Of a stretch of 64,000 nucleotides of DNA, positions 33,434-52,866 are shown in pieces; the first letter of the stretch is position 1; each line of letters starts with the position of its first letter. Source of the stretch: a virus; the IMG/VR virus record IMGVR_UViG_3300046168_000026, positions 96,001 to 160,000 of that record; one strand, written 5' to 3'. The notes beneath the pieces were generated by a model that was not told the origin of the DNA, searched no databases, and worked only from the letters and a program-made list of their open reading frames with translations. The position numbers and the translations under genes were made by a program.

Positions 33434-35245
33434 TTAGCTTTCCCTATTTTCCATGAACGAAACTACAATATAACGAGTACCTTTAGTGGTTGCACGCGCT
33501 CCATGCTTATGAGTTATATTGCCAGGATGTAATGTTGCGTAACCAATTGGATTTTTTACTAACTTCTTTTGTCTTCTGAACCAAGTACCACCACCTTCGT
33601 ATTCATCTAAATCTGATAGTTGTACTAAACAAGTAATATCTGCCCTATCGTGATGTATTCCCAAGTGTCCTTGTGCAGTTGGTATATATTTTGCTAAAAA
33701 GTTTTCGGAACTCATACTATCCCATCCTTTACCTTCTAACGCCCATAAATATACTGCAACTTGCATAACATAGTCTTTCAATACATCATTATATATCTCG
33801 TCCATTCCAATTTCTGTTATCAACATATCAGTTGTTGGGTAATTTTCATGTCGGTCAAAAGTCCATCTATTAGAATGTTCGGCTTCTTCTCTAATCATTT
33901 TACAAAATTCTTCAGTAAATAAAGGAAATTGAAAACAACTATCAAATGGTTCGTCTACTATCAAATCCCATTCCTTTGTACGAGCTGAATATGATATGAA
34001 TTTTTTTGTCCACTCATCTTTGTTGTCCCAATATGTGTATAGTTCTGGATGAAGTTTTTCAAATCCAAAATCTTCTGGCGGAGTAAATCCTCTTGCCTCA
34101 TCTGGTAACTTATCATTCACCAAATTATACCACTCTACATATCTGTCACTCCAATTTTGTTTTCTTGCAAATTGTTCAGCACTATCTAACAACTTCTTGT
34201 GTTCTTTTACTTGTTGACTTGAAAAAGCAAATGCTGCGATAAATGTATATCGCATAAGGCCTGTATTTTTATTTTCCCATTTGTAGTTATCAGGGGAACT
34301 ATCATCAAATGGAGTTTCACCTGACTCATGAGTATGTGAACTTATTAATGTACTTTTATTATCGAGTAAGTGTTTTAAATTACCTGTATCAGATGATAGA
34401 AGTTTAACTCTACCCATCATCATTTCAAGAGCAGTTATACAATATGTTTCAGGATACTGAGATGGGTAAATCCACCACTCAGAAGATTTAATTTGTTTGT
34501 ATAACTCAGATGGATTTAGTGAACCTAAATAATGTACATCAAAGTCTCTTTCATAAGTTGGGTAATCTTTTTTTATTCGTTCTAAAGTGTCCCAATCATT
34601 AGTATAAGGTGGTGATGCAACCCACAAAGTTAAATTAGGATTAATGTTTTTTAAATCATCCCAAATATTTAACAGATTCCACAATCCTCTATCAGGTCCA
34701 GATGTGTAAATTACTTTGTCTTTAAATTTTTCTTGTTGGATGGAATCAAAGTCGGATGGGTTTATAGCATTTCCTATAACTTTAACCTTTTCAGAGTTTA
34801 AATTATATTTTTTCACTAATTGACCCTTTTGCCACTCTGATACTGCGATTATATTTGTTAATTTAGGATGGTTTAGATAATCTACTCCATCATTTGGAAG
34901 AGTCTCACCATTATACCATGAATAGAACTCTAAATTATGTATCCAAAAGTAAGAACTATCGAATGTTATATTTTTATCTTCTAAAACTTTAAAGTAATGA
35001 ATGTAATTTGATGCAATAACAACATCAAAGTGTTGATTGTTATCAATACTGTCATAATCAATAAATTTTAGATTATTTGTTTGACTATTTGAAACTTCAC
35101 CTGTAATTATTACCTCGTGACCTTTCTTTTCAAACTCTTTAGCTAAGTTAATGACGCAATATTCAGAACCACCCATACCTTTTTGTTTTAGTATGGTGTC
35201 ATTAATTGGTTCGTTTTGATATCCTACTGTAAATAAAACTCTCAT
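33434..35245 (-). CDS. Fusion of a GT-B (GT4-like) glycosyltransferase and a PLOD-type lysyl hydroxylase (2OG-Fe(II)) domain
   Basis: N-terminal GGSE, YTSGPDRGL, YPSQYPETYCITALE. C-terminal LHPELY..WDN..EW, FPLFTEEFC, ENYPTTD, HHD, YEGGGTWF, LHPGNITHKH and GTRYIVVSF match lysyl hydroxylase motifs as I recall them. Confidence 0.85.
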   Translation of the reverse strand: MRVLFTVGYQNEPINDTILKQKGMGGSEYCVINLAKEFEKKGHEVIITGEVSNSQTNNLKFIDYDSIDNNQHFDVVIASNYIHYFKVLEDKNITFDSSYFWIHNLEFYSWYNGETLPNDGVDYLNHPKLTNIIAVSEWQKGQLVKKYNLNSEKVKVIGNAINPSDFDSIQQEKFKDKVIYTSGPDRGLWNLLNIWDDLKNINPNLTLWVASPPYTNDWDTLERIKKDYPTYERDFDVHYLGSLNPSELYKQIKSSEWWIYPSQYPETYCITALEMMMGRVKLLSSDTGNLKHLLDNKSTLISSHTHESGETPFDDSSPDNYKWENKNTGLMRYTFIAAFAFSSQQVKEHKKLLDSAEQFARKQNWSDRYVEWYNLVNDKLPDEARGFTPPEDFGFEKLHPELYTYWDNKDEWTKKFISYSARTKEWDLIVDEPFDSCFQFPLFTEEFCKMIREEAEHSNRWTFDRHENYPTTDMLITEIGMDEIYNDVLKDYVMQVAVYLWALEGKGWDSMSSENFLAKYIPTAQGHLGIHHDRADITCLVQLSDLDEYEGGGTWFRRQKKLVKNPIGYATLHPGNITHKHGARATTKGTRYIVVSFMENRES

Positions 35246-35247
35246 AT

Positions 35248-36534
35248 CTATTCTACTATATAATTAACAAATTCTTCGTTTTTACCATATCTGTCATAAT
35301 CTCTATAACTGATATCTTTTATTGAATGGTTTTTTTCATAATCCCACATCCAATCTTCTTTTCCTAATTCCTCAAATCTATCCTTTATTTGAGTATCATA
35401 ATAATCTCTAATTAACCTTGCTCTTCGGTTAATATCAACTCTATTGTTGTCAACAGTAGAGTCTCCATTATTATATTGTACATATAACATTTTTTTAAGA
35501 TGAATAAATTTAGTTTCTAAAAATGTTTTAATAATTAATTCTAAATCATCTGCGACTGAAATATTTCTATTGTGTCCTCTGATTTTATGATACACATCTC
35601 GATTCCAAACTCTACAATGGTTTGGCATCCCAATATTAAATCTAATTGTTTTTGGATTTATTTCAGGATAATGATGTACTAACCACTCTTTATCATCAAT
35701 CTCTTGCCAAGTATGACCTGCGTAACCCCATACAAATCCATTCTCAGAATGACCATACCAATCATCACCTATGTAACCATATATTCTCGGTGAATTATCC
35801 TTTTCAACTTCAGTTACATCTGTATAAATAAATCCAGCATCTGTATGTTTCTTACTTGCATCAAGAACATCTTCTAAACAAGTTGATATTAACCAATCAT
35901 CGTGGTCTAATTCAAATAACCACTCACCATTACATAACATTGCCGCTCTATGTTTAGCCTCACCAACATTTCCACCTGATATTGGTGATATTCTATATGG
36001 TTTTACCCTATAATCTAATTTAGCTATATGATTTATCATTTGCCAAGTTAAATGATGGTCTTCTGGTGAATCATCTACCACAACCCACTCCCAATTCTGA
36101 TATGTTTGTTCTAATAGAGATTTGTATGTTCTAAATATTCTATTTTCAGTTTTATATGTTGGAGTGAATACTGATAATAGTGGTGAATCTTCATTACTAT
36201 AAACTCTATTTGATTCACATGACCAAAAAGTTGACTGACAAACTACATCATTCGCTATTACATTATCAGGATAAATTTCTTCTGCATTAACTATCTTAGA
36301 TTTTACAATATCATCGGTTACATTTTGTAATTCCGATGGAATTTCACCTATTACATAAATAATATCAGCTTTATGTTTGGATAAATGTGATTTCCAATTT
36401 TTAGCATCTCTGTATGAATAAATTACAACATTTTCGAATAAATCTTCTTCGTGATAGATGTCGGATGTTAATTCGTATTTACCAAATCGTTTCCAACCAT
36501 ATACTAATGCCGTTGGTAAAGTAGTCTTTTGCAT
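35248..36534 (-). CDS. Glycosyltransferase family 2
   Basis: SVFTPTYK, WEWVVVDDS, ELDHDD, ADDLEL. Confidence 0.88.
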   Translation of the reverse strand: MQKTTLPTALVYGWKRFGKYELTSDIYHEEDLFENVVIYSYRDAKNWKSHLSKHKADIIYVIGEIPSELQNVTDDIVKSKIVNAEEIYPDNVIANDVVCQSTFWSCESNRVYSNEDSPLLSVFTPTYKTENRIFRTYKSLLEQTYQNWEWVVVDDSPEDHHLTWQMINHIAKLDYRVKPYRISPISGGNVGEAKHRAAMLCNGEWLFELDHDDWLISTCLEDVLDASKKHTDAGFIYTDVTEVEKDNSPRIYGYIGDDWYGHSENGFVWGYAGHTWQEIDDKEWLVHHYPEINPKTIRFNIGMPNHCRVWNRDVYHKIRGHNRNISVADDLELIIKTFLETKFIHLKKMLYVQYNNGDSTVDNNRVDINRRARLIRDYYDTQIKDRFEELGKEDWMWDYEKNHSIKDISYRDYDRYGKNEEFVNYIVE

Positions 36535-36537
36535 ATC

Positions 36538-37140
36538 TTATCTGTAAGGTTCACCACCAACCCATAAAACAAATGATTTTCGTATACCACTTGTTACGGG
36601 AGTTACTCTATGTAAATAAAATGAAGGAAATATAATCGCTGCTCCTTTTTTAGAAGGTGCAGTCAATTCTTTTCCAATATTAAATTGTAAGTCACCACCT
36701 TCGTATTCATTTGAATCTGAAAGTTGTACTGTTACTGATATTTTTCTTTGATTTTGTATCTCTATACCACAATCCATATGCCAATCATACCCACCTTCTT
36801 GACTTCCGTAATATTCAGTATATTGAATTGATTCATTCATAGTAGATAAATCAAACTTCCACATTTTTTGATTTGATTCTACAATCATATTGTGAAGTTT
36901 TTCATAAACCCATCCCCATTCTTGATTTTGAGGACACCATTTTACTCTTGATTTTCTATAATCTGATTTTTTTGATGATTCACCTTCACCTGTTGCTGCA
37001 TCTTCAAATGGAAGGAGTTTGGTCATTTGTTCTATTTGACTTAATTCAGTTGAATCAAACCCATCTGCGAACCAATAATAATCTGTGAAATTTACATCCC
37101 ATCTATGAGGGTTTCTATCGAATCCAAAATTTGCTCTCAT
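36538..37140 (-). CDS. 2OG-Fe(II) oxygenase (PKHD / prolyl-hydroxylase-like)
   Basis: YDWHMD, KISVTVQLS..YEGGDL, FPSFYLHRVTPVTSGIRKSFVLW. Confidence 0.88.
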   Translation of the reverse strand: MRANFGFDRNPHRWDVNFTDYYWFADGFDSTELSQIEQMTKLLPFEDAATGEGESSKKSDYRKSRVKWCPQNQEWGWVYEKLHNMIVESNQKMWKFDLSTMNESIQYTEYYGSQEGGYDWHMDCGIEIQNQRKISVTVQLSDSNEYEGGDLQFNIGKELTAPSKKGAAIIFPSFYLHRVTPVTSGIRKSFVLWVGGEPYR

Positions 37141-37178: not shown

Positions 37179-40100
37179 TTAGTAAAAGCTACCACTATGT
37201 ACAGACCTTATGATATAGACATCATCACCTGAAGACCATCCATTTGGTTTAAATGTTAGTATACCACCTTGAACTTCAAAATATCCTAAACCACTCATCG
37301 AAGCCCCTTGAGCACCAATTACACCTTTTACACCTTGAACACCCGTATTACCTTTAACGCCAGTACGACCACCTGAGCCAGTTGCACCTTTATTACCTGC
37401 ATTACCTTGAGCACCTTGAACACCACCACCACCTGTTGTACCTTTAGAACCTTTATCGCCTGAATTACCTGTTTTACCTTTTAGACCTTGTAAACCTACT
37501 GCGCCTGTATTACCTTTATCACCTGCGAGGCCTGTATTCCCTTTAATACCCGTTCTACCGCCAGAGCCAGTTGCACCTTTATTACCTGCATCACCTTGAG
37601 CTCCAACTGCACCTTGGTTTCCTGTATTACCTTTAGAACCCTTATCGCCTGCATCACCTTGAGCTCCAACTGCACCTTGTAAGCCCGTTGCACCCGTATT
37701 ACCTTTATCACCTGCTACGCCTGTATTACCTTTTACACCAGTACGACCACTTGAACCAGTTGCACCTTTATTACCTGCATCACCTTGAGCTCCAACTGCA
37801 CCTTGATTACCTTGGTTACCTTTTGCACCTTTATTACCTGCGAGGCCGGTATTACCTTTATTTCCTTTAACACCTTGGTTACCAGTATTTCCTTTATTAC
37901 CTGCATCACCTTGAGGACCTGTTGCACCTTTTACACCTGTTCTACCACCTGAGCCAGTAACACCTTTATTACCTGCAGCACCTTGAGCACCAAGTAGACC
38001 TTGATTACCAGTATTTCCTTTAGAACCCTTATCGCCTGAGTTACCTGTTTTACCTTTTAGACCTTGTAAACCTACTGCGCCTGTATTACCTTTGTTTCCG
38101 GCAACACCCGTATTACCTTTTACACCTGTTCTACCACCTGAGCCAGTAGCACCTTTATTACCTGCATTACCCTTAGTACCTTTATCACCTTGGTTACCAG
38201 TATCTCCTTTAGCACCTTTATCACCTGCGAGGCCTGTATTACCTTTTAGACCTTGTAAACCTACTGCGCCTGTATTACCTTTGTTACCTGCATCGCCAGT
38301 ATTACCTTTTACACCTGTTCTACCAGTTGAGCCAGTAGCACCTTTATTACCTGCATCACCTTGAGCTCCAATTGCACCTTGTAAACCTACTGCGCCAGTA
38401 TTTCCTTTAGAACCTTTATCGCCCGAATTACCTTTTGCACCTTTTAGACCTTGTAAGCCCGTTGCACCCGTATTACCTTTATTACCTGCGAGGCCTGTAT
38501 TCCCTTTAATACCCGTTCTACCACCTGAGCCAGTAGAACCCTTATTACCTGCGAGGCCTGTATTTCCTTTAACACCTTGGTTACCAGTATTTCCTTTACT
38601 ACCCTTATTACCTGCATCACCTTGAGCTCCAACTGCACCTTGTCGACCTACTGCGCCTGTATTACCTTTGTTACCTGCTACGCCTGTATTACCTTTACAC
38701 CAGTACGACCACCTGAGCCCGTACCACCTTTATTACCCGTATTTCCTTTTGCACCTGTTAGTCCTGTATCACCAGTATTTCCCTTAGCACCTTTATTACC
38801 TGCGAGGCCTGTATTTCCTTTATTTCCTTTAGCACCTTGATTACCTTGATTACCTTTAGCACCTGCGAGGCCTGTATTTCCTTTTGCACCTGTTGCACCT
38901 GCCGAACCTGCAGCACCTTTATTACCTGCGAGGCCTGTATTTCCTTTTACACCTTGGTTTCCTGTATTACCTTTAGAACCTTTATCGCCTGAATTACCTG
39001 TTTTACCTTTTAGACCTTGTAAGCCCGTTGCACCCGTATTACCTTTATTACCTGCGAGGCCTGTATTCCCTTTTACACCTGTTCTACCACCTGAGCCAGT
39101 AACACCTTTATTACCTGCAGCACCTTGGTTACCCTTAACACCTTGATTACCAGTATTTCCTTTAGCACCTTTATTACCTGCGAGGCCGGTATTACCTTTA
39201 TTTCCCTTTGCACCTTGGTTTCCTGTATTACCTTTAGCACCTGCAACACCCGTATTACCCTTAACGCCTGTTCTACCAGTTGAGCCAGTAGAACCTTTAT
39301 TACCTGTATTACCTTTGTTACCCTTAGCACCTTGGTCACCTGCCGAGCCAGTATTACCTTTTGCACCTTTATTGCCCGAATTACCTTTTGCACCTTTTAG
39401 ACCTTGTCGACCTGTGTTTCCTGTTGACCCTTTGTTTCCTGCAGAACCCGTATTACCCTTAACGCCTGTTCTACCACCTGAGCCAGTAGAACCTTTATTA
39501 CCTTGAGCACCTTGGTTACCCTTAGCACCTTGTAGACCTGTATTTCCTTTAGCACCAGTTTCACCTGCGAGGCCTGTATTTCCCTTTGAACCTTGATTAC
39601 CAGTATTTCCTTTAGCACCTTTATTTCCTGCGAGGCCTGTATTTCCTTTTGAACCTTGTCGACCACTGATTCCAGTAGCACCTTTATTTCCTGCAAGACC
39701 CGTATTACCTTTTGAACCTTGATTACCAGTATTTCCTTTTGAACCTTTTGCACCTGCGAGGCCTGTATTTCCCTTTGAACCTTGATTACCAGTATTTCCT
39801 TTAGCACCTTTATTACCTGCGAGGCCTGTATTTCCTTTTGCGCCTGTTCTACCACCTGAGCCAGTAGAACCTTTATTTCCTGCGAGGCCTGTATTTCCTT
39901 TTGAACCTTGTCGACCTGTATTACCTGTTGAACCTTTATTACCTGCGAGGCCTGTATTTCCTTTAGCACCTTGTAGACCCGTATTTCCTTTAGCACCTTG
40001 GTTACCTGCGAGGCCTGTATTACCCTTTACACCTGTTCTACCAGTTGAGCCAGTAGAACCTTTATTTCCTGCGAGGCCTGTATTTCCTTTAGCACCTTGA

Positions 40101-41431
40101 TTACCAGTATTTCCTTTTGAACCTTTTGCACCTGCGAGGCCTGTATTTCCTTTTACACCTTGGTTTCCTGTATTACCTTTTGACCCTTTTGCACCTGCGA
40201 GGCCTGTATTTCCTTTTGCGCCTGTTCTACCACCTGAGCCAGTAGAACCTTTATTACCTGCGAGGCCTGTATTTCCTTTAACTCCTTGTGCTCCTGTTGC
40301 ACCTTGTGAACCAGTTGCACCTGTATTTCCTTTTACACCTTGTCGACCTGTATTACCTGTTGAACCTTTATTACCTGCATTACCCTTTAAACCTGTTGGA
40401 CCTTGAGGGCCAGTTGCGAAACCGAGTCCAGCTATACCTGTATTACCCTTTAAACCTGTTGGACCTTGAGGGCCTGTTGCAGCTGATGCACCTGTAGCTC
40501 CCTTTGCACCCTGTCCTCCAGAAGAAGCATTTGAACCTGCATCACCTGCAGCTCCTTTTGCACCTTGAGGACCTGTGGAACTATCTGAATCGGAACAATT
40601 ATTACAAGATGTATAAGCTTGATAATTACCTGAACTGTTTAAACATAGTTGAGTACCATCAGGACTAACTGACCCTTGATTTTCATAACAAGTAGTACCT
40701 ATTTTTATTACAGTAGAATTAAATTCATCTTGAAATGCAAATTCAAAATAAGCATCATCACTACATCTTGAAAATTCATAGGCGTACTCACATTCCTCTT
40801 CCCCGAATCCTTTATCGTTGTGTACTATGAATCTATTAACTAAGAACAAGTCAGATTCTTCAATATCTAATTTTGATACTGGAAACTGACCTAATAAACT
40901 TGGATTCTCGGTATTTACTTCTTGAAAACCACCTGTAACTGGCACATATTCAAATGTAGAGTTATCTGATTTTAATTTTACTAAGTAATGGTTACTATAT
41001 TCGTCTGAACCCCATTCGATTCCATCTAATTGTTCAAAGTAAATATTCCACCCGCTTTGAATAGAAGAAGTGGTTTCGGTCTCTTCATCCCAAACAACTT
41101 GTCTATTTTTCTGTGCAACAAGGATATATTCTTGGTCTGTAACTGATAAGGAACCTGATGGTGTTTCTAATGTATATACATTTGCAAACTTTAAGGTATT
41201 AGAGTTATTTGCAATAGACCAAACAACTTCTTCATTTTCATTTAATTGAATATATGAAAAATCATTGAAACTACCCGTCCATGTAGTTGGTATATCATTT
41301 TGAAATGTATATCCACTCCCACTAAGACTAATACCTACAATAGTTGACCCTGAATTTATATTTTTTAATTCAGAAGTAGACCCTTGTAGATTTACTAAAG
41401 TATGTTGTGTATTTAAAAATCCAACTGCCAT
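37179..41431 (-). CDS. Collagen-like protein B: Hint domain, Cys-rich linker, ~1090-residue Gly-X-Y tract (~1417 aa after repairing a 1-nt deletion near 38695)
   Basis: The track ORF ends at 38678, where the repeat GGTGTAAAAGGT has lost one A. Gly-X-Y continues in the shifted frame to ...GYFEVQGGILTFKPNGWSSGDDVYIIRSVHSGSFY* (stop 37179-37181); 4253+1 nt = 1418 codons. Confidence 0.85.
40817..41431 (-). other. Hint-like domain of collagen B (aa 1-205), ending His-Asn
   Basis: MAVGFLNTQHTLV (block A-like, no Cys) ... VSKLDIEESDLFLVNRFIVHN|D (blocks F and G). Confidence 0.6.
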
Positions 41432-41448
41432 TGTAACCTTATTTTAGT

Positions 41449-44400
41449 TTATGAAGAACCACTTGTATACATTAATACAACAAATTTTGTACTTCCACTC
41501 TGAAATGTTAATAATCCATCAGTTGCCGAGTATGCAAATCCACCACTTGGACCTACTTCAGCGCCACCAATTAATGTTCCAATTCCACTTGCACCTTTCT
41601 GACCTTGTCCACCTTGAAGACCTTGAGCGCCTTGAGAACCTTTTGGTCCTTGAGCACCTTGAGCCCCCGTAGGACTTGCACCTTGAGCACCTTGAGGACC
41701 TTGAGCACCTTGAGCACCTTGGTCACCTTGAGGACTTGCACCTTGAGCACCTTGGTCACCTTGAGGACCTTGAGCACCTTGTGCACCAGTTGGACTGGCA
41801 CCTTGTGCACCTTGAGAACCTTTTGGTCCTTGAGCACCTTGAGCCCCCGTAGGACTTGCACCTTGAGCACCTTGGTCACCTTGAGGACCTTGTGCACCTG
41901 TATCTCCTTTTGGACTTGCACCTTGAGCACCTTGGTCACCTTGAGGACCTTGAGCACCTTGTGCACCAGTTGGACTGGCACCTTGAGCACCTTGAGAACC
42001 TTTTGGTCCTTGAGCACCTTGAGCCCCCGTAGGACTTGCACCTTGAGCACCTTGGTCACCTTGAGGACCTTGTGCCCCTGTATCACCTTTAGGACTTGAA
42101 CCTTGAGCACCTTGAGCACCTTGGTCACCTTTAGGACCTTGAGCACCTTGAGGACTTGCCCCTTGAGCACCCGTTGCTCCTTGAGCACCTTGAGGACCTT
42201 GAGCACCTTGAGCTCCCGTAGGACTTGCACCTTGAGCACCTTGGTCACCTTTAGGACCTTGTGCACCTGTATCTCCTTTTGGACTTGCACCTTGAGCACC
42301 TTGGTCACCTTGAGGACCTTGAGCACCTTGAGCACCTGTTGGACTGGCACCTTGAGCACCTTGAGAACCTTTTGGTCCTTGAGCACCTTGTGCACCAGTT
42401 GGACTTGCACCTTGAGCACCTTGGTCACCTTGAGGACCTTGTGCCCCTGTATCACCTTTAGGACTCGAACCTTGAGCACCTTGAGAACCTTTTGGTCCTT
42501 GAGCACCTTGAGCACCTTGAGGACTTGAACCTTGAGCACCTTGAGAACCTTTTGGTCCTTGAGCACCTTGTGCACCAGTTGGACTTGCACCTTGAGCACC
42601 TTGGTCACCTTGAGGACCTTGAGCACCTTGAGCACCTTGGTCACCTTTAGGACTTGAACCTTGAGCACCTTGGTCACCTTGAGGACCTTGAGCACCTTGT
42701 GCACCAGTTGGACTGGCACCTTGAGCACCTTGAGAACCTTTTGGTCCTTGAGCACCTTGAGCCCCCGTAGGACTTGCACCTTGAGCACCTTGAGAACCTT
42801 TAGGACCTTGAGCACCTGTATCACCTTTAGGACTCGAACCTTGAGCACCTTGGTCACCTTGAGGACCTTGAGCACCTTGTGCACCAGTTGGACTGGCACC
42901 TTGAGCACCTTGAGAACCTTTTGGTCCTTGAGCACCTTGAGCACCTTGAGGACTTGCTCCTTGAGAACCTTTTGGTCCTTGAGCACCTTGAGCACCTGTA
43001 TCACCTTTAGGACTTGAACCTTGAGCACCTTGAGCACCTTGGTCACCTTTAGGACCTTGTGCTCCCGTAGGACTTGCACCTTGAGCACCTTGTGAACCTT
43101 TTGGTCCTTGAGCACCTTGAGCACCTTGAGGACTTGAACCTTGAGCACCTTGAGAACCTTTAGGACCTTGAGCACCTGTATCACCTTTAGGACTCGAACC
43201 TTGAGCACCTTGGTCACCTTGAGGACCTTGAGCACCTTGTGCGCCAGTTGGACTCGAACCTTGTGCACCTTGAGAACCTTTAGGTCCTTGAGCACCTTGT
43301 GCACCAGTTGGACTGGCACCTTGAGCACCCGTATCTCCTTTAGGACCTTGTGCACCTGTATCTCCTTTAGGACTTGAACCTTGAGCACCTTGAGCACCTT
43401 GGTCACCTTTAGGACCTTGTGCTCCCGTAGGACTTGCACCTTGAGCACCCTGTGAACCTTTTGGTCCTTGAGCACCTTGAGCACCTTGAGGACTGGCACC
43501 TTGAGCACCCGTATCTCCTTTAGGACCTTGTGCACCTTGAGCACCTTGGTCACCTTTAGGACTAGCACCTTGAGCACCTTGGTCACCTTGAGGACCTTGA
43601 GCACCTTGTGCACCAGTTGGACTGGCACCTTGAGCACCCGTACTTCCTTTAGGTCCTTGAGCACCTTGAGCCCCCGTAGGACTTGCACCTTGAGCACCTT
43701 GAGAACCTTTTGGTCCTTGAGCACCTTGTGAACCTTTTGGACTGGCACCTTGAGCACCTTGTGAACCTTTTGGTCCTTGTGCACCTGTATCACCTTTTGG
43801 ACTTGCACCTTGAGCACCTTGAGAACCCTTTGGTCCTTGTGCACCTTGAGCACCTGTTGGACTTGCACCTTGAGCACCTTGAGAACCTTTAGGACCTTGA
43901 GCACCTGTATCACCTTTAGGACTCGAACCTTGAGCACCTTGTGAACCCTTTGGTCCTTGTGCACCTGTATCACCTTTTGGACTGGCACCTTGAGCACCTT
44001 GAGAACCTTTTGGTCCTTGAGCACCTTGAGCACCTGTTGGACTTGCACCTTGAGCACCTTGAGAACCCTTTGGTCCTTGTGCACCTTGAGCACCTGTTGG
44101 ACTCGAACCTTGAGCACCTTGAGAACCCTTTGGTCCTTGAGCACCTTGTGAACCCTTTGGACTTGAACCTTGAGCACCTTGAGAACCTTTTGGTCCTTGA
44201 GCACCTTGAGCCCCCGTAGGACTAGCTCCTTGAGCACCTTGTGAACCCTTTGGTCCTTGTGCACCTGTATCACCTTTTGGACTGGCACCTTGAGCACCTT
44301 GTGAACCTTTTGGTCCTTGTGCCCCTGTATCACCTTTAGGACTCGAACCTTGAGCACCTTGAGAACCTTTTGGTCCTTGAGCACCTTGAGCACCTGTTGG

Positions 44401-45159
44401 ACTTGCACCTTGAGCACCCGTAGTTCCTTTTGGTCCTTGAGCACCTTGAGCACCTTGAGGACTTGCACCTTGTGAACCTTTTGGTCCTTGAGCACCTTGA
44501 GCACCTTGAGGACTTGCACCTTGTGAACCTTTTGGTCCTTGAGCACCTTGTGCGGATGAACCTGATGAACCTTGAGCACCTTGAGAACCTTTTGGCCCTT
44601 GAGCACCTTGAGAACTTGCACCTTGAGCACCTGTAGCTCCCTTTGCACCCGTTGAACCAGATGAACCTGCCGAACCTTTTTGTCCTTTTTGTCCTTTAGC
44701 ACCTTGAGGACCTGTATTGTGTATTAGTAACTCACCTACAAAGTAATTATGGTCTGGTTCTACTTCGATACTTATAAGTTCTATTGGTTTTTCAACTAAT
44801 TTTACTGAAGTTATCTTTATTCCATTGAAAAATGGTGTAGTACCACATTTACAATCACCACAACCACATGATTCGTTACCGACTGGTGAAACCCATTCAC
44901 CATCTTTATATATTTTTATATCGACAGAAGTTTTTAGCTCAGTTCCGTCTGAAAGTTTAATTTGTAAGTAGGAGTCGAGAGTTCTTTCCCATTTGGTTAC
45001 AACCTTATTGTACCTAATGACCCCATTTTCAACATCATAACCTTTTATATAGTCACCAAGTTCAATATTAGACAAATTGATTGGAACGCCTTGTCTATTA
45101 TTTACTCTTCCTTTGATGTCTACTAAGGTATCTTTATGTAATCCATGTATATGTTCCAT
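41449..45159 (-). CDS. Collagen-like protein A: Hint domain and ~1040-residue periodically interrupted Gly-X-Y tract
   Basis: [15 protein letters not shown] triplets; short C-terminal domain [31 protein letters not shown]. Confidence 0.9.
41590..44620 (-). repeat. Predominantly 60-nt (20-aa) tandem repeat: six Gly-X-Y triplets plus a 2-residue P(T/K/Q) insert
   Basis: Consecutive 60-nt sequence lines around 42.2-43.5 kb start with near-identical words; unit [20 protein letters not shown]. Confidence 0.9.
44716..45159 (-). other. Hint (intein-like) domain of collagen A (aa 1-148), ending His-Asn followed by Thr
   Basis: [11 protein letters not shown]...[11 protein letters not shown]...[12 protein letters not shown]...[20 protein letters not shown]|TGPQG. 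Confidence 0.75.
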
Positions 45160-48606: not shown

Positions 48607-51600
48607 TTATGGTGCTGACGCTGAGTCAGGCATTAAATAATATCTTGAGTTATTTGTATTTTCACCTTCTGCAAAAATCATTCCCCATCTTGTATATCCT
48701 TCTACTGCATTTTCAGTATTGAAATAATATACACCTGTTCCAATTGTACCAGGTATTGATGAGTCTTTTGCATATACATAGTATTCGTTTGCAGTACCCG
48801 TACTATCCGGCGGTACTCCATCATACATACTTACAGGTTTACCACCTTGATTCGATGCTGATGGGAATACTACTACTAATCTTTTTGAACCACCACTACT
48901 AAAGTTTATATATCCAAAACTTGATAGACCTGTTGCGCTACTATCTGATAGTGTTGTTTTTGAACTACTTCCAAATAATTGCATTGTACCACCAACATAT
49001 GTTGGACTGAATGTTGTACCAAGTGAACCACTTTGTAATTTTGCAATTACTGAACCTGCTTCGATTCCTACTCCATCACCACCACTATCACCCATAGATG
49101 CGATTGCAGCTGCTTCACTTGCCGCAGAACCACCATCCCAACCATAAACATATGTTTTCGCTACAGGGTTAAGAATTGTTATACTTCTATTGTAACTTGT
49201 TGACTTATCAAAGTTGTCAAATACTGATGCGCTATAATTGTAAGTAACACCACTACTGATTATGCCTGTATTTTGTAGTTGATATGATGATGAGTTTGCA
49301 TTTTGTGGTACAAGTTTTAAATTACCTGCGTGTGTTCCACCTAATGAAGCTGAGAATGGTGTATCCGATTCTGTATCTGATATAGTAATCGTTGTAAGAT
49401 TAGTTGATGCCGCAACTGATGCGGTCATGTTTGCACCTACTTCATTAAATGTTGCAGTTGGTGCTTGGTTTGCGAATACATTTACTGTTACCGAACCACT
49501 TCCTATATTATCAAATTGGTCTCTGTATGTTATTGTTGATGTAATTGCATCACCACTACCTGTACTTGAACCACTAACATGAACTTTCATTGTTAAGTTA
49601 CCACTATTGTTAATACCAATTGCGGCGTTGGATGATGTAAATGATTGAACTGCGGCTGAGTTATATTGTGGTGAATAACTTACTGTTAATTGAGATGCGT
49701 TACCATTTCCAAACCCAGTAGCGTCTCTAAGTACAGAACCACTAACTGCAGATTCTATAATATATGATGTTGTATCACCACCTAAAGTACCGATTGGTGA
49801 TTGAGCGATTGTTACACTATGTTTAGTAGTACCTGTTCTAAATCCATGACTATCTTTTATAGATGCCGTCATTTGATAAGCAGAACCACTTAAATTATTT
49901 TTTGGTTGTACTAAATAAGTATCACCAGATTTATATGCATTTAATTGACCACTTGGGTCTGTAAAAGTAAATGAAGTATGGTTTAGTGAATCACTTTCTG
50001 TATCTGTAAATGATATTGTTGAAAGTGTACTTCCACTTCTTGCACCATTTGTATTTAAGTTTGCAGATGTGTTACTGAAACTTGGAACTGGTGCATTATT
50101 GATAACAACTGATATATTTTGATTTACATATTGTTTAGTTGTTTCGAATCCATGCTCTGATGCAGTTAGTTCTACTGCAATTGTACTTCCACTTGCGTAT
50201 GCCGAACCACTTAGGTTATTTGCAAGTTCTAATGTTGTTGAAGAACCCGTTGCACTTGTTAATGTAATTAAATTACCTGTTGATTTAACTTCCCATCGTT
50301 GAGATGCCGCTGATGACCATTGTGCACTTGTTCCTGTTCTACCATTTGAGATAATTTTAATATCATCACCACTTGTTGCAGATTCTATAACATATAAGTT
50401 ACTCCAATTATCAGATATTGAGCTTGCCGCGTCATCTGCGATATTAATTCTAATTAAACCTGTATCAGATGTTGTATTAAATGCGTCTTTTACTGTTACT
50501 TGGTAAAAATATCTATTTGCAACATCAGAATTTAGATAAACTCCATTCCTTCTTGTTACAACACCTGCAGAACTACATTGGAATGGATTAGAATGTGGGT
50601 CATATAGTGAATTACCACCTAAAGATGAGGTAATATTTGAACCACCATCTAAATTTGCTTCTTTTAATGTAAAATTACTAAATACAATAGTATCACTCGT
50701 TGGGTCTGTTGCGGTTATTGTACCAACACTTGCACCATTACTACTATTTTCATTAATACTACCCAATGTTTGGTCATTTACTGTTGGACTTATGTTATCA
50801 ACAACTTTTATTTGGAATGGTAAGTATGCAATTGCTTCAGTATCATCACCACTTACATAGTGTTCATCACTTGCAGTTAAAACTAACTCATATTTTGGTG
50901 TAGTTTCATAATCCAATGATGATGTTGTCTGATTTAACTGAACATATGTACTTGCTTTAGTAATTGTAAATCCACTTGGGACTGAACCACTACCAATTGT
51001 GATTGTATCACTCTCATCATCGGTGAAATAAACTCTAACTTTGTTACTTGCCGCTGCTGAGTTTTCGTTTAGTGATTGTGTAAATGTAGTTACCACAGAA
51101 CCACCGACTGATGTTTGTCTCCACTTCGGTGGAGTGTTAGGTGTTACCCTAATGTATATTGTTTTTGAACCAACACCTGCGAATGTATCTACTGCTTCTA
51201 CTAAGAATGGATGTGAACCACTACCTGGTGTGTTATCAGTATTTAATGATGCCGTTGATTTTGTATTTAGTGTTATAGCTCCATTTGATGCTATTCTAAA
51301 TTTATCTGCCGTATAAGAACTTGCAGTTCTAAATGTAATCGATTGTCCTTCTGCGTCTGTTGCACTAACAGTTCCAACAGAAGACCCACTTGCTACAAAT
51401 TCACCAATTGTAAATCCAGTTGTACTAATTGATGGTACTGTATTTGGAAAGAATACCTTTTCAACAAAGTCTGATAAAGAAGTAGTTGTTCCAAAGTTAT
51501 TATTGTAAACACCTGATGGTAAGTCTGTATTTGATACGACTCGGTTTCCATCAAATGAAACAAAAGATGCGGTAGCTACCGACATTGAAGAAGTCTGATT

Positions 51601-52866
51601 GTTAGATATAGCTGACCCTGTAAAAGTATTCAATGCACTAATGTCGGTTGAACCACCACCGCTACTACTACCCGTATTTGCGTTATCAATATAGATAACC
51701 CCACCCATATTTGCATGAGCAGTACATTGATAATATAAAACTCTTGGTGAATCGAATTGTACATTCCAAGTTAATGTTCCATTTGAAACATTATTGTTTG
51801 TTATACCATCATTGTACTCAGAACCTGCCGAACCATTAGGAGTTGATTGAATCCTAAATGGGTGAGCTCCCATATTATTTATAAATTTATACTTTTGACC
51901 TCTTGTTAAATAAAGAGTTGGGTCATTTTCTGCACCTATTAAACCTGGACCAGTAAATGTGTAATGACTATTCCCATCTGCACCCAATGTCCATTGTGAA
52001 GTATAGTTACTTAGTTCGGATACCGATGAGGAGTTAACACTTGTTATTGAAGATGATATTAACCCACTTGGTAATTGTACCGAAGATGATATTAACCCAC
52101 TTGGTAATTGTACCGAAGATGATACCAATCCACTTGGTAATTGTACCGAAGATGATATTAACCCACTTGGTAATGATACCGAACTTGTATTGATTGTAAC
52201 TGTAACTGCGTTACCATCATTGGTTGCCGTAACTGCGTTACCTACAAAATCAAAACTACGAACTATTTTACTTAGTGCAGTTCCTTCATCTGATGCAGTT
52301 ATGTTTAATCCGGCTCCACCACCACCGCCACCTGAAAGTGATGATAAATCTACTGAATTTCCACCTGAAATACTTAATGAGTTGTTTCCATCATTAAATG
52401 ATAATGTTTGTTCTGAACCTGTACTATCTGTGGTTGAGAATCCTAATGCCGTTATTTGTGCAGATGATGATATTGTTCCATCAGGAAGTGTATCACCACC
52501 ACTACCAAATCCTGCGGCTGCAGCACTTGCCGATGTTAAATAACCGGCACCTTCAACATTTGTTAATCTTGTTGCTAAAGATGATGAGGTAGTACCAAAC
52601 GCTCCTGATATTTCTGCTTTTGTGTAATTATTTCTTGCTTCTAATGATGTGATTCTTGTAGAAATAGAACCTGATGTAATTGGATATACTTTTTGTCTAA
52701 AGTTATTTGCTGCAGTTATCGAGTTCTTTTGAAATGCAGTTATTGTTTGAGGTCTATTCTGTATAGAATTATATGTTACTTGCGCAGATGATGATATTAC
52801 ACCATTAGATGATGTTATATCCCCAAAGAATGAACCGCTAAATGAACCTGAATAGTCGAATGGCAT
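48607..52866 (-). CDS. Large virion surface protein with a cupredoxin-like domain and cadherin-like repeats
   Basis: HPF...YYQCTAHANMGG; repeated ENS..G..VGT..ATD and LDYE motifs; Ser/Thr-rich. Confidence 0.7.
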   Translation of the reverse strand: MPFDYSGSFSGSFFGDITSSNGVISSSAQVTYNSIQNRPQTITAFQKNSITAANNFRQKVYPITSGSISTRITSLEARNNYTKAEISGAFGTTSSSLATRLTNVEGAGYLTSASAAAAGFGSGGDTLPDGTISSSAQITALGFSTTDSTGSEQTLSFNDGNNSLSISGGNSVDLSSLSGGGGGGAGLNITASDEGTALSKIVRSFDFVGNAVTATNDGNAVTVTINTSSVSLPSGLISSSVQLPSGLVSSSVQLPSGLISSSVQLPSGLISSSITSVNSSSVSELSNYTSQWTLGADGNSHYTFTGPGLIGAENDPTLYLTRGQKYKFINNMGAHPFRIQSTPNGSAGSEYNDGITNNNVSNGTLTWNVQFDSPRVLYYQCTAHANMGGVIYIDNANTGSSSGGGSTDISALNTFTGSAISNNQTSSMSVATASFVSFDGNRVVSNTDLPSGVYNNNFGTTTSLSDFVEKVFFPNTVPSISTTGFTIGEFVASGSSVGTVSATDAEGQSITFRTASSYTADKFRIASNGAITLNTKSTASLNTDNTPGSGSHPFLVEAVDTFAGVGSKTIYIRVTPNTPPKWRQTSVGGSVVTTFTQSLNENSAAASNKVRVYFTDDESDTITIGSGSVPSGFTITKASTYVQLNQTTSSLDYETTPKYELVLTASDEHYVSGDDTEAIAYLPFQIKVVDNISPTVNDQTLGSINENSSNGASVGTITATDPTSDTIVFSNFTLKEANLDGGSNITSSLGGNSLYDPHSNPFQCSSAGVVTRRNGVYLNSDVANRYFYQVTVKDAFNTTSDTGLIRINIADDAASSISDNWSNLYVIESATSGDDIKIISNGRTGTSAQWSSAASQRWEVKSTGNLITLTSATGSSTTLELANNLSGSAYASGSTIAVELTASEHGFETTKQYVNQNISVVINNAPVPSFSNTSANLNTNGARSGSTLSTISFTDTESDSLNHTSFTFTDPSGQLNAYKSGDTYLVQPKNNLSGSAYQMTASIKDSHGFRTGTTKHSVTIAQSPIGTLGGDTTSYIIESAVSGSVLRDATGFGNGNASQLTVSYSPQYNSAAVQSFTSSNAAIGINNSGNLTMKVHVSGSSTGSGDAITSTITYRDQFDNIGSGSVTVNVFANQAPTATFNEVGANMTASVAASTNLTTITISDTESDTPFSASLGGTHAGNLKLVPQNANSSSYQLQNTGIISSGVTYNYSASVFDNFDKSTSYNRSITILNPVAKTYVYGWDGGSAASEAAAIASMGDSGGDGVGIEAGSVIAKLQSGSLGTTFSPTYVGGTMQLFGSSSKTTLSDSSATGLSSFGYINFSSGGSKRLVVVFPSASNQGGKPVSMYDGVPPDSTGTANEYYVYAKDSSIPGTIGTGVYYFNTENAVEGYTRWGMIFAEGENTNNSRYYLMPDSASAP
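52045..52175 (-). repeat. Four 33-nt (11-aa) repeats, LPSGL(I/V)SSSVQ
   Basis: Directly visible tandem repeat. Confidence 0.85.

What the first reader, a model, noticed from the sequence alone, without database searches (positions are those of the whole stretch)
40817..45159. N-terminal Hint domains configured for C-terminal cleavage only
Seen: both collagens begin with a Hint-like domain within a few residues of Met1. The Cys/Ser1 position is Gly (HGLHKDT, VGFLNTQ), while the terminal His-Asn is intact (LLIHN148|TGPQG; FIVHN205|DKG). Known: Asn cyclisation cleaves Hint domains from their C-flank without the N-terminal nucleophile, as in bacterial intein-like domains and pretoxin-Hint. Inference: these are self-removing propeptides or folding chaperones. 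This mirrors the C-terminal autocleaving chaperones of tailspikes but uses different chemistry at the opposite end. The Thr+1 in collagen A leaves open ligation chemistry.
Basis: partly seen in the sequence, partly recalled or inferred. Interest (0 to 1): 0.8.

Follow-up and report, generated by a model that had tools for sequence, protein, structure and literature searches.

The report
Half-disabled Hint domains capping phage collagens
Two giant collagen-like fibre genes of an uncultured T4-like phage each start with an intein-type (Hint) domain that has lost the residues for cutting at its front end but keeps those for cutting itself off at its back end, so it most likely acts as a self-removing pro-piece; this pairing of domains was not found in the papers searched.

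Summary
Collagen A (41449-45159, minus strand) starts with MEHIH and then a 143-residue domain. That domain is a Hint domain both by profile search (BIL2 E 2e-8, gp41-1 intein 1e-6) and by predicted fold (Foldseek E 3.5e-9, TM 0.74).

Position 1 is Gly6 (Gly, Ala or once Ser in relatives). The block-B His is Ile81 and F:4 is Ser130. The C-terminal set is kept: His137, His147, Asn148 and Thr149.

Collagen B (38678-41431) has a very divergent N-terminal domain with no Pfam hit. Its model (residues about 61-205) matches only inteins, Hedgehog and BIL domains (Z up to 9.7; unrelated folds reach 3.3 at most), and Asn205 lands on the intein's last residue.

The A-then-B gene pair recurs in about 20 IMG/VR contigs. 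His-Asn is invariant in 16 A-type and 14 B-type sequences, down to about 25% identity.

Most likely these are N-terminal pro-domains that cleave only at their C-terminal end, by Asn cyclisation. Cleavage itself and its purpose are untested. The main rival is a retained structural domain that does not cleave.

No isolate phage, bacterial genome or paper searched shows this architecture. I rate it a new variant of a known kind, interest 0.6.

Other readers of this scan noted the same stretch earlier.

The parts
41449..45159 (-). Collagen A gene, 1236 aa. Order of parts: 5-residue leader, Hint domain, about 1040 residues of Gly-X-Y repeats, then a roughly 35-residue C-terminal cap.
44716..45144 (-). 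Hint domain of A, residues 6-148. Key residues: Gly6 at position 1; Ser78 and Ile81 at block B positions 7 and 10; Ser130 at F:4; His137 at F:13; His147-Asn148 at G:6 and G:7.
   Evidence: Profile and fold matches. Residue mapping.
44713..44718 (-). Predicted scissile junction Asn148|Thr149. The collagen repeat starts at Gly150.
   Evidence: HN|TGP is invariant in 16 distinct A-type sequences.
44845..44868 (-). CxCxxCxC cluster (Cys98, 100, 103, 105) in the loop between blocks B and F of A's Hint domain. It is present only in the closer relatives.
   Evidence: Alignment A3; weak metallothionein-like Pfam hit; low pLDDT at residues 99-101.
38678..41431 (-). Collagen B gene, first frame (917 aa).
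40817..41422 (-). Divergent Hint-like domain of B, residues 4-205, ending Val203-His204-Asn205. Asp194 sits at the F:13 position.
   Evidence: AF2 model pLDDT 59, with residues 80-205 mostly 70-88. Foldseek top hits are all Hint. VIA-align Z up to 9.7, with Hint rows far above unrelated rows. Conservation.
40574..40816 (-). Cys-rich linker of B (residues 206-286) between the Hint domain and the collagen start (..SDSDSS TGPQG). Its length varies from about 20 to 110 aa in relatives.
37179..38729 (-). Continuation of collagen B in another reading frame (516 codons), ending in a C-terminal cap like A's. One base is missing in an A-run at about 38694-38696.

Best explanation
Each collagen chain is made with an N-terminal Hint (Hedgehog/intein-type) domain that is catalytically one-sided.

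The upstream junction cannot be activated:
- There is no Cys or Ser at position 1.
- There is no block-B His.
- Only 3-5 residues lie in front of the domain.

The downstream apparatus is kept. It consists of the penultimate His and terminal Asn, plus the block-F His in A.

Proposed mechanism: the terminal Asn (Asn148 in A, Asn205 in B) cyclises to a succinimide. This breaks the Asn-Thr149 bond in A and the Asn-Asp206 bond in B. The products would be:
- a released Hint piece of roughly 17 kDa (A) or 23 kDa (B);
- a mature fibre chain starting TGPQG... in A, or starting with the Cys-rich linker in B.

Shown here: the Hint identity or fold, the residue pattern, its conservation, the gene order, and the setting among phage structural genes.

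Inferred: that cleavage happens. Also inferred is its purpose, namely a transient pro-domain that keeps the 1000-residue Gly-X-Y chain soluble, or times its assembly, before removal. That role would be analogous to a procollagen propeptide or the self-cleaving chaperone of phage tailspikes.
For: 1. A is a Hint domain. Profile against PDB: BIL2 E 2.4e-8, gp41-1 intein 1e-6, BIL 3e-6. The profile pulls Hint-annotated proteins at E 3.5e-23. AF2 pLDDT 79 with Foldseek top hit BIL2, E 3.5e-9, TM 0.74.

2. Residue mapping for A:
- Gly6 aligns with intein residue 1.
- The BIL block-B stretch T-T-F-D-H aligns with A's T-S-V-D-I, so His B:10 becomes Ile81.
- gp41-1 D107 (F:4) aligns with Ser130, and its block-F His with His137.
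- The roles of these positions are taken from PMC4031507.

3. Conservation in A. HN|TGP is invariant in 16 distinct A sequences of 44-99% identity. Two of these were found only through an N-terminal DNA motif, so they are not biased towards blocks F and G. In residues 126-149, 14 of 24 positions are invariant, against 19 of 110 elsewhere.

4. B is a Hint fold ending at Asn205. In an all-against-PDB search, 31 Hint chains score Z 9.7 down to 3.4 before the first unrelated row at Z 3.3.

5. Conservation in B. Val-His-Asn is invariant in 14 B sequences down to about 24% identity, while the +1 residue varies freely. B sequences were collected by a full HMMER search and by gene position, not by this motif.

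6. His147 and Asn148 are two of only five columns invariant across A, B and the genome's third, canonical Hint domain.

7. Asn cyclisation is the only role the review read here gives the Hint terminal Asn, with the penultimate His assisting it. BIL domains cleave without splicing.

8. Setting: both genes lie in a myovirus structural gene block. Nearby are portal, major head, sheath and baseplate-fibre connector genes, next to 2OG oxygenase and glycosyltransferase genes.
Against: - No biochemical or proteomic evidence exists, and no cultured relative is known.
- In canonical inteins Asn cyclisation is slow and is stimulated by the upstream steps, so efficient uncoupled cleavage is not guaranteed.
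- B has Asp, not His, at F:13.
- Fibre proteins usually dock to the virion by their N-terminus. Removing the only N-terminal globular domain of A would leave a bare triple-helix end.
- All A sequences come from one phage clade, so part of the invariance reflects relatedness. The block-F string EVEPDHNY was itself a search pattern.
- The model of B is of low confidence overall (pLDDT 59).
Confidence: 0.55

Rival explanations
1. The Hint domains are retained, non-cleaving structural modules of the mature fibres. They could serve as the virion-docking or trimer-nucleating N-terminal head. His-Asn would then be kept for folding or packing reasons, or only a trace of cleavage would occur.
For: - Fibres normally need an N-terminal attachment domain, and A has no other N-terminal globular part.
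- Loss of half of the catalytic residues shows these domains are drifting away from intein chemistry.
- B lacks the block-F His.
- Coupling of Asn cyclisation to upstream steps in real inteins is described in PMC4031507.
Against: [quoted passage not shown] From general knowledge, Hedgehog Hint domains also lack a terminal His-Asn.
- Here His-Asn is invariant in two paralogues at about 15-25% identity, and it is among the best-conserved columns.
- In A the whole C-terminal catalytic set is invariant.
Confidence: 0.3
2. The domains perform a non-canonical splicing or ligation. One form would be Thr149, or Ser130 at F:4 in the manner of class 3 inteins, attacking the upstream junction. That would join MEHIH to TGPQG, or join the collagen to another partner.
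For: - Thr+1 is invariant in A.
- Ser130 occupies the F:4 position that carries the nucleophile in class 3 inteins.
- The leader M-E/S-L-I-H is conserved.
- One relative (P0004) has Ser at position 1.
Against: - There is no block-B His.
- The class 3 Trp/Cys/Thr signature is absent. F:4 is Ser, not the Cys that the review requires. The Trp and Thr positions are my own reading of alignment A3, recalled from memory of the motif.
- Class 2 inteins use Cys+1 and Asp F:4.
- B has no +1 nucleophile at all.
- Splicing a five-residue leader onto the chain would achieve nothing obvious.
Confidence: 0.04
3. The domains are decaying remnants of a selfish mini-intein or BIL insertion. They would have no present function and would be tolerated at the N-terminus.
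For: - The same genome carries a fully canonical Hint domain in another fibre-like gene, which could be a donor.
- The N-terminal catalytic residues are lost.
Against: - The domain is present, in frame and at the same place, in every A and B gene recovered.
- The paralogues have diverged to about 15-18% identity yet keep the fold and His-Asn.
- No Hint-less allele was found, although the search for one was weak.
Confidence: 0.05

Closest known systems
Bacterial intein-like (BIL) domains, type A, including Tetrahymena BUBL BIL2 (6y75/6tmm) and the Clostridium thermocellum BIL (2lwy)
   Same: They are the best sequence and fold matches for A. They are small Hint domains without an endonuclease, they end in His-Asn, and they sit in non-conserved, often surface or structural proteins. 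Cleavage dominates over splicing in them (PMC4031507).
   Different: Per the review, the proposed type A BIL splicing mechanism starts with a thioester at the BIL N-terminus, which needs a nucleophile at position 1. The solved BIL chains aligned here carry the block-B His. A and B have neither. They also sit at the extreme N-terminus, not inside a protein.
Class 1 mini-inteins such as the cyanophage-like gp41-1 intein (6qaz/6riz)
   Same: Same fold, 24-25% identity to A, matching blocks A, F and G, and His-Asn followed by a hydroxyl residue.
   Different: True inteins interrupt conserved host proteins and splice. Here Cys/Ser1, His B:10 and Asp F:4 are missing, and the 'N-extein' is 3-5 residues long.
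Pretoxin-HINT (Pfam PF07591) of polymorphic toxins
   Same: It is the best Pfam model for A (E 3.3e-4; best family member 1.7e-5). From memory, it is also thought to release whatever lies downstream of it.
   Different: The score is below Pfam's gathering threshold (21.4 against 27.7 bits). PT-HINT sits internally before a C-terminal toxin, whereas here the domain is N-terminal and sits before a collagen fibre.
Engineered C-terminal-cleaving intein tags (position-1 Ala mutants used for tag removal)
   Same: Identical logic: an N-terminal Hint domain with a dead front end and a live Asn, which drops off the downstream protein. This comparison is from general knowledge, not a tool result.
   Different: Those are laboratory constructs. 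This would be a natural, conserved equivalent.
C-terminal intramolecular chaperone domains (Peptidase S74) of phage tailspikes and fibres, and procollagen propeptides
   Same: The functional idea is the same: a terminal domain that helps a trimeric fibre assemble and is then removed. This comparison is from general knowledge.
   Different: S74 domains have an unrelated fold and chemistry (Ser-Lys dyad) and sit at the opposite end of the chain. Procollagen propeptides need separate proteases.

Membership tests
Hint (Hedgehog/intein) superfamily | Hint fold | tested here: met
   A: AF2 pLDDT 79; Foldseek finds 58 Hint chains at E <= 1e-3, top hit BIL2 with E 3.5e-9 and TM 0.74. B: residues about 61-205 score Z 9.7-6 against 27 inteins, Hedgehog and BIL chains, with unrelated folds at Z 3.3 or below. 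B's model confidence is moderate, and residues 1-78 are not modelled reliably.
Hint (Hedgehog/intein) superfamily | Significant sequence or profile similarity to known Hint domains | tested here: met
   Met for A: profile against PDB gives E 2.4e-8, and Hint-annotated proteins are retrieved at E 3.5e-23. Inconclusive for B: no Pfam or PDB sequence hit. B shows only weak collinear matches to A.
Class 1 intein | Cys, Ser or Thr nucleophile at position 1 | tested here: not met
   A has Gly6. The family has Gly or Ala, with one Ser. B has Gly4 or other non-nucleophiles.
Class 1 intein | Block B Thr-x-x-His (His B:10) | tested here: not met
   A has Ser78-Val-Asp-Ile81, aligned to T-V-N-H of BIL2 and T-F-D-H of 2lwy. 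B has no conserved His there.
Class 1 intein | C-terminal His-Asn followed by Cys, Ser or Thr at +1 | tested here: met
   A has H147-N148|T149, invariant in the family. B has H204-N205, but its +1 residue is Asp, Phe, Ala, Pro or Val, so B does not meet the +1 criterion.
Class 1 intein | Interrupts a conserved host protein, with intein-free alleles known | tested here: not met
   Only 5 (A) or 3 (B) residues precede the domain. No Hint-less allele was found, but that search was weak.
Class 3 intein | Cys at F:4 (part of the Trp/Cys/Thr signature) | tested here: not met
   F:4 is Ser130, aligned to gp41-1 D107. The positions expected to carry Trp and Thr hold Lys and Ile/Val in alignment A3. 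The requirement for Cys at F:4 is taken from PMC4031507; the Trp and Thr positions are recalled from memory.
BIL domain, type A | N-terminal nucleophile that forms the thioester at the BIL N-terminus, combined with a C-terminal His-Asn | tested here: not met
   His-Asn is present, but there is no position-1 nucleophile. The need for an N-terminal thioester in type A BILs is taken from the review read.
Pfam PF07591 PT-HINT | Score at or above the gathering threshold | tested here: not met
   21.4 bits against a cut-off of 27.7. Ten of 14 A members hit, with best E 1.7e-5. None of the B members hit.
Asn-cyclising self-cleaving Hint (functional class) | Asn-dependent cleavage of the downstream peptide bond | not testable with these tools
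   This needs expression of wild type against N148A and N205A mutants, or virion N-terminomics.

The most novel reading that the evidence does not exclude
A phage-encoded 'procollagen' system that needs no protease. In this reading, one-sided Hint domains act as conditional, self-removing N-propeptides on kilo-residue collagen chains. Cleavage would be timed by environment. For example, the CxCxxCxC cluster inside A's Hint domain could sense metal or redox state as the particle leaves the cell. Cleavage would control registration, assembly or exposure of the glycosylated fibres.
Probability: 0.15. Interest if true: 0.8.

Novelty: new variant of a known kind. Interest (0 to 1): 0.6.

Why it matters
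If cleavage is real, this would be a natural counterpart of the engineered C-terminal-cleaving intein tag. It would also be, as far as the papers searched here show, the first Hint domain recruited as an N-terminal pro-piece of a collagen-like virion fibre.

It would add a third route to fibre maturation, alongside S74 chaperone domains and host or phage proteases. It would also show how intein-type domains are domesticated by losing one catalytic half.

In practical terms, a compact (about 134-143 residue) natural Hint domain tuned for uncoupled Asn cleavage next to Gly-X-Y repeats could be useful for making recombinant collagens.

The family is confined to uncultured far-T4-like phages, so it also flags a clade worth isolating.

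Tried and rejected
Searches that gave nothing:
- GenBank phage collection: blastn of the region, and tblastn of both N-domains, gave no match.
- GTDB representative genomes: no relative.
- The search for related loci with the B alignment failed for lack of a conserved stretch. The B single-sequence patterns found nothing. B relatives were obtained instead from the full HMMER search and from gene position downstream of A.

Looking for orthologous collagens without a Hint domain: I searched with A's C-terminal cap and with the upstream 106-aa gene. Both only re-found the same contigs, often cut at contig ends. Absence of Hint-less alleles is therefore not established.

Literature: six full-text searches found no paper describing this architecture. 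The terms covered Hint or intein with collagen-like, tail fibre, structural protein and PT-HINT (checks).

The ESM Atlas look-up only returned viral collagen clusters.

Register of position 1: the single-sequence alignment to gp41-1 first suggested Leu12. I rejected this because the window's A carries a 7-residue insert. The family profile and insert-free relatives put Gly6 at position 1.

Ascertainment worry: the distant A loci could only have been caught by the block-F pattern. A DNA scan with an N-terminal motif re-found 19 of the 20 contigs, plus two new complete domains, all with HN|TGP.

Class 2 and class 3 splicing were considered and rejected; see the rival explanations.


Full report
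**What is there**

The window is part of a 176,264-base virus record, about 97% complete. All genes in the region lie on the minus strand.

Two very long collagen-like genes sit in tandem:
- Collagen A: 41449-45159, 1236 aa.
- Collagen B: 38678-41431, 917 aa.

B then continues in another reading frame, 37179-38729. That part ends in a C-terminal cap resembling A's. One base is missing from an A-run at about 38694-38696.

Both start codons are well supported. Each has a ribosome-binding site and lies within 10-17 nt of the previous gene's stop. Only MEHIH (A) or MAV (B) can therefore precede the N-terminal domains.

The surroundings are a myovirus structural block: portal, major head protein, a baseplate-wedge fibre connector, fibre-like proteins and tail sheath. 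Directly downstream of the collagens lie three enzyme genes:
- a 2OG-Fe(II) oxygenase;
- a GT2 glycosyltransferase;
- a GT4 glycosyltransferase fused to an OGFOD2-like oxygenase domain.

The major head protein is closest to Microcystis phage Mel-JY01 (57%) and Flavobacterium phage immuto (52%). These are distant members of the T4 superfamily.

**Collagen A's N-terminal domain is a Hint domain**

Taken alone, the sequence gives only sub-threshold hits:
- PT-HINT, E 3.3e-4, 21.4 bits against a cut-off of 27.7;
- gp41-1 intein, E 6e-4.

Twenty IMG/VR loci carry relatives at 44-99% identity. A profile built from 14 of them (alignment A3) gives much stronger results:
- Tetrahymena BIL2 at E 2.4e-8, gp41-1 intein at 1e-6 and the C. 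thermocellum BIL at 3e-6.
- Metagenomic proteins carrying six Hint-type Pfam families, at E down to 3.5e-23.

The AF2 model has pLDDT 79 and pTM 0.74. It matches BIL2 (E 3.5e-9, TM 0.74), then the BIL, gp41-1, DnaB and DnaE inteins and others.

**Catalytic inventory of A**

I use the block nomenclature and residue roles summarised in PMC4031507.

Position 1 is Gly6.
- The profile aligns its position 12 with chain residue 10 of gp41-1.
- The chain numbering is offset by 3, as shown by the D107C residue at chain position 110.
- Thr11 therefore matches intein Thr6, and Gly6 matches residue 1.
- Relatives have Gly or Ala here, and one has Ser.

Block B reads Ser78-Val-Asp-Ile81. It aligns with T-V-N-H of BIL2 and T-F-D-H of the BIL. 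The His that activates the upstream junction is therefore Ile, or Ala, Ser or Val in relatives.

F:4 is an invariant Ser130, aligned to gp41-1 Asp107.

The downstream set is complete and invariant: His137 (F:13), His147 (G:6), Asn148 (G:7) and Thr149 (+1). The Gly-X-Y repeat begins at Gly150.

Conservation is concentrated at this end. In residues 126-149, 14 of 24 positions are invariant, against 19 of 110 elsewhere.

The string EVEPDHNY had itself been a search pattern. I therefore repeated the collection with a DNA motif for the N-terminal I-H-G/A-L-H-K/E-D-T-L. It re-found 19 of the 20 contigs and added two new complete domains. Both end HN|TGP.

**Collagen B**

B's first 205 residues have no Pfam or PDB sequence match. 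They show two weak, collinear similarities to A:
- residues 9-73 against A's 9-79 (BLASTP E 0.001; A3 profile E 9.6e-4);
- the last 36 columns (hhalign E 8e-4, probability 25%).

A full HMMER search of 1.8 billion representatives found 13 relatives. In addition, every A locus with enough downstream sequence has a B-type gene right after A.

In the 15-sequence alignment (A4), identity to the window's B falls to 24%. Even so, Glu191, Asp194 (the F:13 position) and Val203-His204-Asn205 are invariant. The +1 residue varies freely among Asp, Phe, Ala, Pro and Val.

The AF2 model is weak overall (pLDDT 59). Residues 1-78 score below 50, while residues 80-205 mostly score 70-88. The fold searches gave:
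- Foldseek: best hits are all inteins or Hedgehog, but only at E 6e-3 and above.
- VIA-align: Z 9.1 with 109 aligned residues at 2.9 Å against the GyrA intein.
- An independent search of 48,161 PDB representatives: 31 Hint chains (Z 9.7 to 3.4) before the first unrelated fold at Z 3.3. Model residue 205 aligns with the last residue of the inteins.

I therefore accept B as a divergent Hint domain that ends in His-Asn. The assignment of Gly4 to position 1 rests only on MAFFT. That residue is not conserved across B relatives.

After Asn205 comes a Cys-rich linker of variable length, and then D-S/T-D-S/T-S-x-G-P-x-G opens the collagen part.

**Most likely mechanism**

Both domains have lost what is needed at the upstream junction and kept what is needed downstream. 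The only role the review assigns the terminal Asn, with the penultimate His assisting it, is Asn cyclisation, which breaks the downstream peptide bond. BIL domains, and intein precursors whose splicing steps are uncoupled by mutation, perform this cleavage without splicing.

His-Asn is invariant in two paralogues that share only about 15-18% identity. His147 and Asn148 are two of five columns invariant across A, B and the genome's third Hint domain. That pattern argues for selection on this chemistry.

I therefore favour a self-removing N-terminal pro-domain, with confidence 0.55. The biological purpose is inference. It could be solubility, assembly timing, or exposure of the mature fibre end.

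The main rival, at 0.3, is a retained structural head that does not cleave. A fibre normally needs an N-terminal docking domain, and uncoupled Asn cyclisation is slow in many inteins.

Splicing or ligation is unlikely (0.04):
- There is no block-B His.
- F:4 is Ser, not the class 3 Cys.
- B has no +1 nucleophile.

A decaying selfish element is also unlikely (0.05), given how constant the presence and position of the domain are.

**Comparison and novelty**

The closest relatives are type A BIL domains and mini-inteins. Membership of the intein, BIL-A and PT-HINT families fails on defining features: the position-1 nucleophile, the block-B His and the Pfam threshold.

Functionally the arrangement works like an engineered C-terminal-cleaving intein tag. 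It is analogous to S74 chaperone domains and to procollagen propeptides.

Nothing similar was found in 50,697 GenBank phage records, in GTDB representative genomes, or in the searchable literature.

I rate it a new variant of a known kind, with interest 0.6.

**Earlier notes from this scan**

Other readers of this scan had flagged the same stretch. Their notes on the C-terminal caps and on the neighbouring hydroxylase and glycosyltransferase genes agree with what I found.

Noticed in passing
window 38690-38700 (minus strand): Collagen B is split by a frameshift. One base is missing from an A-run (GTAAAGGT where the repeat pattern expects V-K-G-N-T-G). The frame then continues for 516 codons to 37179 and ends in a cap like A's. 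This may be an assembly error in repeats, or a real truncation or recoding site.
   Followed up: partly
L022:1492-1932 (minus strand), equal to genome 169892-170266, outside the window: A third Hint domain lies in the same genome, inside a 2341-aa fibre-like ORF. It is fully canonical: Cys at position 1, a block-B His (S-N-S-H), and His-Asn followed by Thr. A roughly 230-aa C-terminal domain of unknown kind follows it. It could be an active BIL or mini-intein, and a possible ancestor of the A and B domains.
   Followed up: partly
window 44845-44868 (A residues 98-105): A CxCxxCxC cluster sits in the loop of A's Hint domain where large inteins carry their endonuclease. It is present in the closer relatives (L001-L007, P0004) and absent in the more distant ones. 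It is a possible metal or redox site.
   Followed up: no
window 40574-40816 (B residues 206-286); also L002-L018 B genes: A Cys-rich linker lies between B's Hint domain and its collagen part. Its length is very variable (about 20-110 aa), and it is followed by a conserved acidic D-S/T-D-S/T-S motif just before the first Gly-X-Y.
   Followed up: no
proteins P0021, P0025, P0027: Metagenomic proteins retrieved by the A profile carry tandem Hint domains separated by linkers of 2-5 residues. In P0025 the first domain resembles the B type (..DVEDIDTYF..ILVHN|IPP), and the next has Cys1 but no terminal His-Asn.
   Followed up: no
window 33434-37140 (minus strand): Three genes lie directly downstream of the collagens: a 2OG-Fe(II) oxygenase (36538-37140), a GT2 glycosyltransferase (35248-36534), and a GT4/GT1 glycosyltransferase fused to an OGFOD2-like oxygenase domain (33434-35245). 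Together they look like a collagen hydroxylation and glycosylation set.
   Followed up: partly
window 41452-41598 and 37179-37290 (minus strand): A and B end in similar caps of about 35 residues (..G-L/I-L-T-F-x-x-G...Y-x-S-G-S). Both caps are conserved in relatives, and they are candidate trimerisation knobs.
   Followed up: no
window 48607-52866 (minus strand): A 1419-aa protein has an N-terminal match to a baseplate-wedge tail-fibre connector (phrog_677) and an internal cadherin-like repeat.
   Followed up: no
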